From: Squalus acanthias
Lineage: Eukaryota
NCBI GenBank assembly: GCA_030390025.1
Contig: CM059432.1
Span: 52,950,001 to 53,014,000 of the forward strand
DNA: 64,000 bases
Reading direction: 5' to 3'
The notes beneath the pieces are model-generated. The model was not told the DNA's origin and ran no database searches. It worked only from the letters and a program-made list of their open reading frames with translations. Every line of letters starts with the position of its first letter. Within the stretch, counting starts at the first letter, position 1. The position numbers and the translations under genes were made by a program. Positions 4,701 through 7,700 of this stretch are shown piece by piece.

Positions 4701-7700
4701 TTAATATATTTAATTTTTTATTAAAATGGATAAATTTGACACTCCACAAAATTTTGTTCAGGGCCATAACGATTTTTTAGCAGTCAATATGCTGTTAAAA
4801 CCCGAGTTACACCTAACCCAAAAGAGTCCAACTTTTACTGGGGTATTTAACAGTGATGTTACCGCAGAAAAGCCAACGTTTGTCAGTTTCACTGATTTCC
4901 CTGATTACCGGTTGTGGGGGGCGGCGGGGCACAGCGCAGTCAGTGTTGGAGCAATGAATGTCAGACCGCAACTTCAGGATTTCCGCGTTAGGATGCACAC
5001 GCGCCAAATCCAGAAGTTGCAGTCAGTTTCAATGGGGTAATAACTGCGAACCATGTGTGTACTGGGGTGAAGGAGAAGATACAAAACAACTTCGCTGTGA
5101 AAGAGCACGATACTACTGAGTAATATGTTTTACATTTAATGAACTACCGAGAGTTCTGGTGGCAGCTTGCACAGTAAGAAACCCTGGGATGTTATTTTGA
5201 ATTTGCACTGCTTATTTCAAAATATTGCCAATTACTCCTGAGGTACCCGATTTAGTTCAATAGTCAGAGAGATTTTGTAATGCTGATTCGGTTGGAGACT
5301 TTTATGCAAACTGCACTATCACCTGCCCCTGCTCATCACAAATAAAATTGAAGAACTGCTTAAGGCTTCCTTTTATAAAATCACAAGGAACAATCAGCAA
5401 CAAAGCTACGTAAACAGACAAAACACACTACTGAAACTGCAAAATAGGGCAAATACGTGATTGTAGCTGATGTACACAAATAGGAGAATGATGCATGAGT
5501 GCAACAGAATCTTAATTGTTAGTAGTTCATAACATTTTGCAGAGACCAAGTTATAAACAGAATTATTGTACTTATGTTGACAGCCTAAACGTACAATTCA
5601 TCAAAATTTTATCTTCAAGAAACCAGGTGAATTTTATTATGCTGCTGAACTTGTGGATATAATAATTATAATAACTATAAAAATTCTTTCAGCAAAGTCA
5701 AACTATTTTGTATATCTGATCTTACTTTTCTATGTAGATGATCAGTGAAGCATTATATATCTAATTTTGCTGAAAAAGTATGAAAGATCTGCGTTAAGAT
5801 GCCACGTGTAAGAAATCTGTCCCATTCAGTGCTTCAGGGACATGCTGAAATGTGGCATGTAGGCAATGCAATCACCCTCCTGACACCAATATATAACCAA
5901 CTAATATGGCACAGCTCTTTTCCACTGTTATGTTGAATGTTTTGAACCCCTTCCTTCAAATTTTACAAATGCACATAAAATATTTCTATTGTCACTTCCT
6001 AATGTATCAAAATGAAATTTCAAATATACATTAACAAAAATTATTTTTACAGATTTATACCAATCTGTGGAATTTAGAAACTTACCAGGCAATAGCCTAA
6101 TTTTTAATGTTTGTGAATCCTCCTTCAATCCAGGTAAGCTTACTTTAAGTGTGAAGTTCTATAAAGAAATAATTCAACAATAAGTTGTTCATGTGCATAT
6201 TCATTTCCATCCTGAAATTTAACAAGATTATTCAATGCAACAAAAGCAGTATGGAAATTATTGACTTGCAGCAATTCCATTTACTGAAGTACAATGGCCG
6301 TCAAAAGATTACTTGGTGAATAGGAATAAAAAAGTAAAATCTATGAACAATAAACCAAGATATTGGCACCTCGCAGCCAGCATTACATGTCAAGACAATC
6401 ATACCCATCTGCATGCAACAGGAAAAAAAGCTACAGGGTCGAACTGTAGAATGAAAACTGTACAGGCTTTAGAGGATTTATTATAATTAAACATACCTTG
6501 CCTTGGCAGTTGGTCACAGGACCCCTGGCTGTTACACCTTTAATAATGAAACTTGTCCCTTTTGCCACAAAGGTTTCATAACGCAGCTCTAACCCACTGC
6601 AAGTACATTTAAATTAGAAAGGGTTACATTCTATACAAGAACTATAAACCAAATCAAGTTGAAGAATGTTAATGCTAGGGAATGGAACAATTACAGTTTT
6701 AGTCGCACAGTATCAACAACAAACATTCCGAGGTCAAGACGCAGATTAAAGCAGTGCCTTGGAAGAGCACCACATTTTTCCTTATCCTACACCATGAGGG
6801 CGTTTCCCAATTTAATAGGAACAGGAGTAAGCTGCTCGTGCCTGTTCTGCCATTCAATGAGATCATGGCTGATTTGTGACCTAACTCCATTTACCTGCTT
6901 TTGGCCCATATTCCTGAATACCTTTGGTAAACAAAAATCCATCAATCTCAGATTTAAAATTAATTGACCCAGCATCAACTGCCGTTTATGGAAGAGCGTT
7001 CCAAACTTCTACCACCCTTTGCGTGTAGAAGTGTTTCCTAACTTCACTCCTGAAAGGCCTGGCTCTAATTTTCAGGCTATGTCCCCTAGTCCTAAACTCC
7101 TCAACCAGCAGAAATAGTTTCTCTCTATCTACCCTATCAGTTCCCCTTATTGAAAACTTCGAACAAATCCCCCCCTTAACCTTCTAAATTCCAGGGAATA
7201 CAACCCTAGTTTGTGTAATCCTGTCTCGTAATTTAACCCTTGGAGTCCAGGTATCATTCTGGTAAATACAAAGGGGTGGAAGTTATGTTACAACTGCAGA
7301 GAGCTCTGGTTAGAATCATAGAATATTACAGCACAGAAGGAGGCCATTCAGCCCATCAAGTCTTTGCCAGCTCTTTCGAAGGCAATCCAGTTACTCCCAC
7401 TCCCCGGCTCTGTCCCCATATCCCTGCAATTTTTTCTCCGTACATTCTGCCCTTATTTTCATATTTCCATTATAAATTCCTATATCCGCATTTATTTATT
7501 GCCATGTTCATTTATGCTGTAATTACACCTCTCCCCAATGAAGTGGCTGCAGCACCTCCATTGACAGGAGAGTATAACTATAGCACAAGTAATTATAGGC
7601 AGCTTCCATTATAAATGTGGACATGGGAATGTATAATGGAAAAAATTGGCAGGAAGTGCACGTAGATGTAAGATTTTTAATATATTACTCACTGACCCCA

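What the first reader, a model, noticed from the sequence alone, without database searches (positions are those of the whole stretch)
7311..7695. The 5' end of SMCHD1 intron 4, starting exactly at the GT donor, is copied into intron 20 via a CR1 tail
Seen: 7315-7692 is a colinear copy of 58222-58604. On the gene strand both read GTGAGTAA..TATATTAAAAATCTT, then a palindromic MITE, then a sense-oriented CR1 3' tail. Homology begins at the first base of intron 4 (CTG|GTGAGT in the source, tca|GTGAGT in the copy) with no exon sequence and ends in the CR1 microsatellite tail. The copy splits a host CR1 at GGTTAGA^CCCCAT, and TAGA is shared between target and tail repeat. Known: CR1 ORF2 recognises its own 3' tail and mobilises SINEs that carry it. 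Inference: an excised intron RNA (lariat or debranched, 5' end = GT) was reverse transcribed from its internal CR1 tail, a promoter-less route to SINE-like elements. The alternative is that a dispersed element supplied the exon 4 donor. Each copy has private indels, so the event is not recent.
Basis: partly seen in the sequence, partly recalled or inferred. Interest (0 to 1): 0.85.

Follow-up and report, generated by a model that had tools for sequence, protein, structure and literature searches.

The report
Spliced-out intron copied into own gene
The first 380 bases of a shark SMCHD1 intron, from its very first base to the tail of a retrotransposon fragment inside it, sit as a second copy 51 kb downstream in the same gene, most likely because the retrotransposon's enzyme copied the spliced-out intron RNA back into DNA close to where it was made; if so, this would be a little-known local route from splicing waste to new genome sequence.

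Summary
The duplicate is real: 7315-7692 matches 58227-58604 at 93.7% (341 of 364 ungapped columns). It starts at base +1 of intron 4 with no exon sequence and ends in a CR1-type tail with 4 bases of target overlap. It splits an older LINE without loss. Direction is intron 4 to intron 20: the CR1 piece has a 5-bp target duplication there, and paralogues lacking it exist.

One claim fails. The "39-nt unique segment" is part of a dispersed repeat, 70-170 times single-copy depth in three sharks. That repeat probably ends at +3 to +6, so only 2-5 bases tie the copy's start to the donor.

No SINE-like spread is seen: at one diagnostic site only two contigs, source and copy, share the allele. A lone daughter 51 kb away would be a ~3e-5 event for random retrotransposition, so the route must be local. 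Best model (0.45): CR1 reverse transcriptase copied excised intron 4 RNA near its gene. Local DNA-templated copying is the main rival (0.22). The scan had no earlier look-alike on other DNA.

The parts
58605..58687 (-). SMCHD1 exon 4 (83 nt); not copied; single-copy depth
   Evidence: tblastn exon map; depth 9.18 in X1 over 58606-58645
58012..58604 (-). SMCHD1 intron 4 (593 nt), the source; GT donor at 58604, AG acceptor at 58012, branch-point-like A at 58033
   Evidence: donor score 7.39 against 1.99-10.84 for the gene's 21 donors (leave-one-out matrix)
58600..58604 (-). First five intron bases; the copy's 5' end matches here; some or all lie outside the dispersed host repeat
   Evidence: repeat-end estimate
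58566..58602 (-). 'Head' of a dispersed host repeat F (AT-rich, not unique; outer end estimated at 58599-58602)
   Evidence: depth 70-170 times single copy in X1, X6, X12; at least 77 contigs in X1
58343..58565 (.). Hairpin MITE-like element nested in F (arms 58364-58409 and 58504-58549, 91% complementary; TG on one flank, TA on the other)
   Evidence: arm depth up to 68,500 in X1; loose-end consensus shows a TA-preceded terminus in the large family
58230..58340 (-). 5'-truncated CR1-type LINE 3' end (stem-loop plus one octamer), between 5-bp direct repeats at 58345-58341 and 58229-58225; the source has lost 11 nt that the copy keeps
   Evidence: contigs that skip 58223-58340 with 6 shared letters in X1 (2), X6 (4), X12 (1) (table 5)
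58162..58224 (-). 3' part of host repeat F, not copied; ends next to a branch-point-like motif (A at 58161) with a CAG at 58144
   Evidence: depth ~2600 and ~100 contigs at 58196-7; boundary 58161-58164; motif
7315..7692 (-). The copy in intron 20: first intron bases and head (7692-7659), hairpin (7658-7443), CR1 piece from 7440 ending in a longer octamer run than the source
7693..7695 (.). 5' junction: one extra base plus a 2-bp duplication of 7313-7314 (or a decayed 4-5 bp duplication)
7311..7314 (.). 3' junction: 4 bases shared by the target and the tail repeat
7268..7314 (+). Host LINE ORF2 fragment, upstream half (antisense to the gene)
7696..8375 (+). Host LINE, downstream half, ORF2 end to 3' UTR (outer end approximate)
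   Evidence: two paralogous LINEs in the window carry RVT_1 (3 of 5 ORFs scanned)

Best explanation
The first 378 bases of SMCHD1 intron 4 are duplicated in intron 20, and the copy was most likely made when a CR1 reverse transcriptase primed at a nick in intron 20 and copied excised (branched or debranched) intron 4 RNA, likely still held at its own transcription site, from the CR1 tail inside it to the RNA's first base. History of the source: a dispersed repeat F carrying a hairpin MITE sits in intron 4 from about +3 to +6 (repeat status shown; ends estimated). A 5'-truncated CR1 then inserted into it with a 5-bp target duplication (shown by the direct repeat and by empty-site paralogues), giving the intron RNA a sense CR1 tail. 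Copying step (inferred): the nicked template strand paired 4 bases with the tail repeat. The enzyme either started on the intron RNA or started on its own CR1 RNA and switched to the homologous tail within the last ~35 bases; either route can explain the longer octamer run. It ran off at the 5' G, where a branched or cut intron ends, and joined with one extra base and a 2-bp duplication. Locality (inferred): the RNA was near the target because it came from the same transcription unit. The daughter has not spread further as far as the contigs show.
For: (1) 3' end at the tail repeat with 4-base target overlap and no target loss. Short duplications and extra 5' bases are reported for zebrafish L2-clade LINEs: 5-bp duplications for ZfL2-1, extra bases in about half of ZfL2-2 copies (PMC4245944, passages). 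(2) 5' end at intron +1 with 0 of 3 upstream bases matching. Simulated repeat ends at +1 gave P(no contig of 105 reaching 58606) of 0.012 or less in 8 of 8 settings, and none did in X1; ends at +3 to +6 fit best, so the copy runs 2-5 bases past the repeat to the donor. (3) Source and copy are sisters: at 22 sites where most laid contigs differ from the source, the copy shares the source letter at 12, the majority letter at 8, and is gapped at 2 (3 of the 12 look like recurrent CpG decay). (4) At 58498 the X1 depth not carrying the family letter is 21.9, equal to source 9.18 plus record 7 at 12.7: two members only. (5) Random insertion within 51 kb has P = 2-3.4e-5, so a local route is needed; copying of transcript RNA at breaks in cis is reported (PMC12065846, passages, there by Pol zeta and not by LINE-1). 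(6) Intron-derived RNAs do retropose: type-2 snoRNA retrocopies end near the branch point (PMC1687206, passages). Stable lariats of mostly 100-500 nt occur in vertebrate cells and eggs (PMC6112733, passages); intron 4 is 593 nt.
Against: One event, no RNA evidence. The head is repeat, so the donor coincidence rests on 2-5 bases, and the repeat's end is inferred from 40-base depth bins with an unknown aligner. The copy has a 5-base gap right after its first five bases. No clear branch-point read-through: only one extra base fits, a chance level of about 0.3. Local insertion is not a known habit of LINEs; one paper argues that copies in neighbouring introns are not retroposed (PMC1802619, passage). 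The two-member count is clean only in X1: the unexplained depth at 58498 is 126 in X6 (single copy ~27-31) and 48 in X12 (single copy ~7). The finding was picked from a very large scan, so a chance end at a donor (about 1 in 400, my estimate) is not negligible.
Confidence: 0.45

Rival explanations
1. Local DNA-level copying. A break in intron 20 was patched from intron 4 DNA, either by microhomology template switching or by one-sided invasion from a small CR1 tail already inserted there, using the homologous tail in intron 4. The end at the donor is chance.
For: Explains locality without a new mechanism. The one-sided version also explains the retrotransposition-like 3' junction and the longer tail. 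An earlier unchecked note reports a local DNA-templated copy of a splice donor in this genome (e1-7940847).
Against: Needs a chance stop at +1 (21 donors in 64 kb). Plain patching also needs a chance start in a tail: 20 octamer-like sites against 477 sites with the 4-base overlap. The target shows no loss at either junction, which would be unusual after resection (general knowledge).
Confidence: 0.22
2. The host repeat F itself ends at the donor: either it supplied the donor, or F was born from this intron. The copy then starts at F's own terminus, through an F-driven transcript or an F-end-directed DNA event, and not because of splicing.
For: Head depth runs to an effective end of 58599.8-58600.4 in three species. 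One strict scoring scheme reproduces this with a true end at 58603-58604. F's other end lies beside a branch-point-like motif with a downstream CAG; chance within 2 nt is 0.002-0.05, judged after the fact.
Against: No X1 contig extends to 58606, unlikely for an end at 58604 with random flanks (0.012 or less). No significant terminal inverted repeat (p 0.4-0.7). No tRNA or Rfam head. A TA dinucleotide lies at both estimated ends, which fits an ordinary insertion at about +6. An F-driven transcript would not explain locality.
Confidence: 0.13
3. CR1 reverse transcriptase copied unspliced nascent pre-mRNA, tethered to the gene, from the internal tail and fell off by chance at the donor.
For: Tethering explains locality and strand. 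The junctions are equally retrotransposition-like.
Against: Chance of stopping at exactly +1 is about 1 in 300-500 (my estimate). A block by bound U1 would stop the enzyme inside the intron at about +7 to +9, not at +1 (general knowledge).
Confidence: 0.12
4. One reading: ordinary trans retrotransposition of excised intron RNA, for example a stable cytoplasmic lariat, that landed in the same gene by chance.
For: Both junctions fit. Stable lariats exist in vertebrate eggs (PMC6112733).
Against: P = 2-3.4e-5 per insertion; about 1,500-2,500 copies would be needed for a 5% chance, and X1 shows two members.
Confidence: 0.06

Closest known systems
Type-2 snoRNA retroposons of mammals (Weber 2006, PMC1687206; passages read)
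   Same: Retrocopies of intron-derived RNA made without a promoter of their own; ends set by splicing and processing.
   Different: Those start at a mature snoRNA 5' end, stop near the branch point, and carry a poly(A) tail and 7-19 bp duplications. This copy starts at the donor, has no snoRNA and ends in an internal CR1 tail.
Platypus snoRTE (mentioned in PMC4233971, passages; primary paper not read; its high copy number is recalled)
   Same: Intron-encoded RNA fused to a LINE-derived tail and mobilised through it.
   Different: snoRTE has a snoRNA head and an RTE tail and is an amplified family; here there is a CR1 tail, no functional RNA head and one daughter.
SINE/LINE pairs with stringent tail recognition, including shark HE1/HER1 (PMC3747384; passages and table read)
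   Same: The LINE 3' tail is the likely handle for the enzyme.
   Different: No tRNA, 5S or 7SL head and no amplification shown.
5' and 3' junctions of zebrafish L2-clade LINEs ZfL2-1 and ZfL2-2 (PMC4245944; passages)
   Same: 5-bp duplication at the intron-4 CR1 piece; short duplication and an extra base at the copy.
   Different: Those are LINE copies of themselves; local insertion near the source is not described in the passages read.
Intragenic (cis) duplication of intronic snoRNAs (PMC2653536 and PMC1802619; passages) and RNA-templated break repair in cis (PMC12065846; passages)
   Same: Intron sequence reappearing in another intron of the same gene; RNA copied at its own locus.
   Different: Cis duplication is ascribed to non-retroposition routes. 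RNA-templated repair is shown for spliced mRNA removing introns, by Pol zeta and independent of LINE-1. Neither describes insertion of an excised intron.

Membership tests
CR1/L2-type target-primed retrocopy | 3' end at a LINE tail with stem-loop and terminal short repeat | tested here: met
   Tail aligns to 4 of 4 LINE 3' ends tested in the window; a 5-bp stem is predicted in both copies, though the fold z-scores are only -1.97 and 0.81. The name CR1 and the octamer as its hallmark are recalled.
CR1/L2-type target-primed retrocopy | 3' microhomology with target; short duplication or blunt join; extra 5' bases | tested here: met
   4 shared bases, 2-bp duplication plus 1 extra base, no target loss
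CR1/L2-type target-primed retrocopy | Made by ORF2 protein from RNA | not testable with these tools
   Inferred from the junctions only
Excised-intron (lariat) retrocopy | 5' end at intron +1 with no exon sequence | tested here: met
   only 2-5 of the matching bases are estimated to lie outside repeat F
Excised-intron (lariat) retrocopy | Branch-point read-through at the 5' junction | tested here: inconclusive
   One extra base fits a branch A, but equally an untemplated base or a decayed duplication
Excised-intron (lariat) retrocopy | Excised intron 4 RNA exists long enough to be a template | not testable with these tools
   Only contigs of a presumed RNA run were available
SINE | Pol III head from tRNA, 5S or 7SL | tested here: not met
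   ARAGORN 0 genes (bacterial-code run, decayed heads may be missed); Rfam 0 matches at gathering score
SINE | Dispersed multi-copy family of the whole composite | tested here: not met
   Two members at site 58498 in X1; less clean in X6 and X12; contigs can miss copies
SINE | LINE-derived 3' tail | tested here: met
snoRNA retroposon (snoRT / snoRTE) | snoRNA at the 5' end | tested here: not met
   Rfam 0 matches at gathering score
MITE (the internal hairpin) | Terminal inverted repeats and high copy number | tested here: met
   46-nt arms, 91% complementary; arm depth up to 68,500 against ~9
MITE (the internal hairpin) | TA target duplication | tested here: inconclusive
   TA on one side and TG on the other in both copies; the family loose-end consensus has TA before the terminus (table 7)
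DNA transposon (host repeat F) | Terminal inverted repeats | tested here: not met
   Best match 7 nt, shuffle p 0.40-0.72
DNA transposon (host repeat F) | Target-site duplication | tested here: inconclusive
   TA at 58599-8 and at 58163-2 fits the estimated ends but is common in AT-rich DNA; true ends not seen

The most novel reading that the evidence does not exclude
SMCHD1 intron 4 is a repeat factory. The dispersed family F (about 70-290 times single-copy depth) spans almost exactly donor (58604) to a branch-point-like A (58161), so it would be a family of retrocopies of a tail-trimmed lariat loop. The intron-20 copy would then be a later, CR1-primed product of the same long-lived hairpin lariat: a SINE-like family with no promoter, born from splicing waste. 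The milder novel reading, one local retrocopy of an excised intron, is the best explanation (0.45; interest if true about 0.75).
Probability: 0.07. Interest if true: 0.95.

Novelty: new variant of a known kind. Interest (0 to 1): 0.58.

Why it matters
If the best model holds, any intron that has picked up a sense CR1 tail becomes a template for a stringent LINE enzyme without needing a promoter, and the product can land in its own gene. That would give a mechanism for intragenic copies of intron sequence, which are usually ascribed to DNA recombination because retroposition is assumed to be random. It predicts a signature that can be counted in any CR1-rich genome (sharks, birds, reptiles): copies that start exactly at a donor, end in a LINE tail and lie near their source. 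As it stands this is one old event with an inferred mechanism and no sign of function.

Tried and rejected
Exact-motif scans for the head and the MITE arm found 0 matches in metagenome and viral contigs; these collections probably hold no shark DNA, so this says nothing. No RNA holder on record was listed. The presumed RNA run X10 had no depth on exons 3 and 4 and almost none on exon 5, and showed no splice or circle joint (a filter removes human-like records): uninformative either way. Earlier-finding look-ups by sequence, words and relatives gave nothing.

Rejected: assembly artefact (record 7 and record 29); uniqueness of the head; a tRNA- or snoRNA-headed element; a whole mobile intron running to the CAG at 58144 (simulated 14-22 covered positions against about 3 observed); full reverse splicing of intron 4 (the copy lacks the 3' 215 nt); a Helitron reading (no A/T target or TC start in the source; motifs recalled); F as a TIR element. 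The X6 contig that covers 58625 was considered as a copy reaching into exon 4. It was set aside because similar sporadic excesses occur in other single-copy bins, but it was not seen directly. Use of the upstream acceptor at 58144 would add 132 nt with an in-frame stop; not tested on RNA.

Literature: no paper describing a retrocopy that starts at a splice donor turned up. The library lacks most subscription papers, and no supplements were read.

Full report
Gene and coordinates. A 53-residue exon translation found SMCHD1 proteins, best in cartilaginous fish. Three of these mapped the exons on the minus strand, and 21 donors were located. The source intron runs from GT at 58604 to AG at 58012 (593 nt), and the protein reads in frame across it. 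The copy lies between the exons ending at 9817 and starting near 6598. The numbers 4 and 20 assume the 63.9-kb exon is exon 2 (recalled from the human gene).

The duplicate. 7317-7692 aligns to 58227-58604 with 23 substitutions (14 transitions) and 26 gap columns in 390. A self-comparison found no third copy of the head or hairpin in the window. The copy begins with the first five intron bases, then lacks five; the three bases before it match exon 4 at none of three positions. At the other end it stops in the octamer tail, sharing 4 bases with the target. Taking out 7315-7695 gives a junction that is gapless against three paralogous LINEs and restores their ORF2 frame; RVT_1 was found in 3 of 5 window LINE ORFs scanned. 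The 5' junction has one extra base and a 2-bp duplication, or a decayed longer one. This matches what is reported for L2-clade LINEs (PMC4245944, passages).

Outside data. Summed contig depth is not a copy number and the tables were cut (for example 40 of 272 letter rows shown), so ratios are rough. Five results follow. (1) Record 7 of X1 has the copy's exact difference count over 58358-58528 (10 substitutions, 9 gap columns), so the copy is real. (2) Record 29 of X6 crosses the hairpin-CR1 junction, stops at 58594 with 62 loose letters, and has 20 substitutions and 21 gaps (the copy has 16 and 22 there). It is probably organism B's copy; its flank was not shown. B's intron 4 flanks differ from the window by 7 of 378 and 13 of 525 bases, less than the 6.3% between source and copy, so the event looks older than that split. 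(3) The head is repeat: 172, 165 and 72 times single-copy depth at 58573. (4) The stretch after the CR1 tail is repeat as far as about 58162. (5) Contigs skipping 58223-58340 exist in all three DNA runs, and the skipped CR1 piece sits between 5-bp direct repeats. So the CR1 piece inserted into a member of an older repeat F, and intron 4 keeps both flanks of that event while the copy keeps one. This fixes the direction, unless a full composite elsewhere fed both sites.

How many composites. At 22 sites where most contigs differ from the source, the copy sides with the source at 12, with the majority at 8, and is gapped at 2. At 58498 the X1 depth without the family letter is 21.9, and source plus record 7 is 21.88. 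That leaves no room for a third member among contigs covering the site. X6 and X12 leave more unexplained depth (126 and 48), and short contigs can be lost in a hairpin, so a few more copies are possible. A family of thousands is not.

Where F ends. This decides how much the donor coincidence is worth. Bin arithmetic gives an effective end of 58599.8, 58600.3 and 58600.4 in the three DNA runs, and in X1 nothing extends to 58606. I simulated families with different true ends under four scoring schemes. An end at 58594 or 58597 never reached the observed value. An end at 58604 made the lack of extension unlikely (0.012 or less in 8 of 8 settings). Ends at 58600-58602 fit best; 58599 fell about one base short, and 58603 fitted only under the strictest scheme. 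The real aligner is unknown and fixed flank preferences were not modelled. I take F to start at +3 to +6, leaving 2-5 intron-specific bases at the copy's start. F's other end lies beside a branch-point-like motif with a CAG 17 nt on, which keeps alive the reading that F is itself a family of lariat-loop copies. F has no significant terminal inverted repeat and remains unclassified.

Locality. A random insertion falls within 51 kb of its source with P = 2-3.4e-5 for an assumed 3-5 Gb genome. With about two members, chance does not explain the position, even allowing that the scan can only see pairs inside one window. The route must be local. DNA-templated patching is local but must hit a tail and a donor by chance. 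One-sided conversion from a pre-existing CR1 tail removes the first coincidence but needs a clean 5' junction and a chance stop at +1. Tethered pre-mRNA is local but needs the same chance stop. Excised intron RNA at the transcription site predicts both ends and the position, at the price of a cis route not described for LINEs. Rough weights, from my own order-of-magnitude estimates and not from a call: 0.45 excised intron in cis, 0.22 DNA-level, 0.13 F's own end, 0.12 pre-mRNA, 0.06 random trans.

Known relatives. Intron-derived RNAs are retroposed as snoRNA retrocopies, some ending near the branch point (PMC1687206, passages), and as LINE-tailed snoRTEs (PMC4233971, passages). Stringent tail recognition and the shark HE1/HER1 pair are reviewed in PMC3747384 (passages). 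Stable lariats occur in vertebrate cells and eggs (PMC6112733, passages). Intragenic duplication of intronic RNAs is common but ascribed to other routes (PMC2653536, PMC1802619, passages). RNA-templated repair in cis is shown with Pol zeta (PMC12065846, passages). Five searches found no report of a retrocopy starting at a donor. The element works like a tail-mobilised, intron-derived retrocopy but is not a SINE or a snoRNA retroposon by the tests run.

Verdict. Real and old; direction well supported; mechanism plausible but resting on one event and a few bases; no evidence of spread or function. Interest 0.58, new variant of a known kind.

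Noticed in passing
window 58144-58164 (-): Branch-point-like motif, pyrimidine run and CAG form a possible upstream acceptor in intron 4, right at the end of repeat F; its use would add 132 nt with an in-frame stop.
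   Followed up: partly
window 58162-58602: Unclassified dispersed repeat F (head, nested hairpin MITE, 63-nt 3' part) without clear inverted ends, present in three sharks; one contig each in X1 and X6 lacks the hairpin interior (joint 58226-58558).
   Followed up: partly
window 58364-58409: Arm of a very abundant hairpin MITE family (depth up to 68,500 against ~9 single-copy in X1); no name found.
   Followed up: partly
window 6812-8375: Two LINE 3' fragments lie head to head, meeting at about 7268; the copy landed 46 nt inside the truncated 5' end of one of them.
   Followed up: no
window 7692 (-): The copy brings a weaker donor-like site into intron 20 (score 4.0 against 7.4 for the source); use not tested.
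   Followed up: no
window 27189-27382 and 31394-31587: 194-nt direct repeat at 99.5% identity, 4.2 kb apart; could be the ends of a young LTR-type element or a recent duplication.
   Followed up: no
window 42619-43891, 47427-47739, 60014-61512: Copies of another LINE-like repeat at 83-88% identity in introns 2, 11 and nearby.
   Followed up: no
window 58606-58627, run X6: A contig of depth 23.2 covers about 22 bases at the 3' end of exon 4 in organism B; probably background, but could be a copy reaching into the exon.
   Followed up: partly
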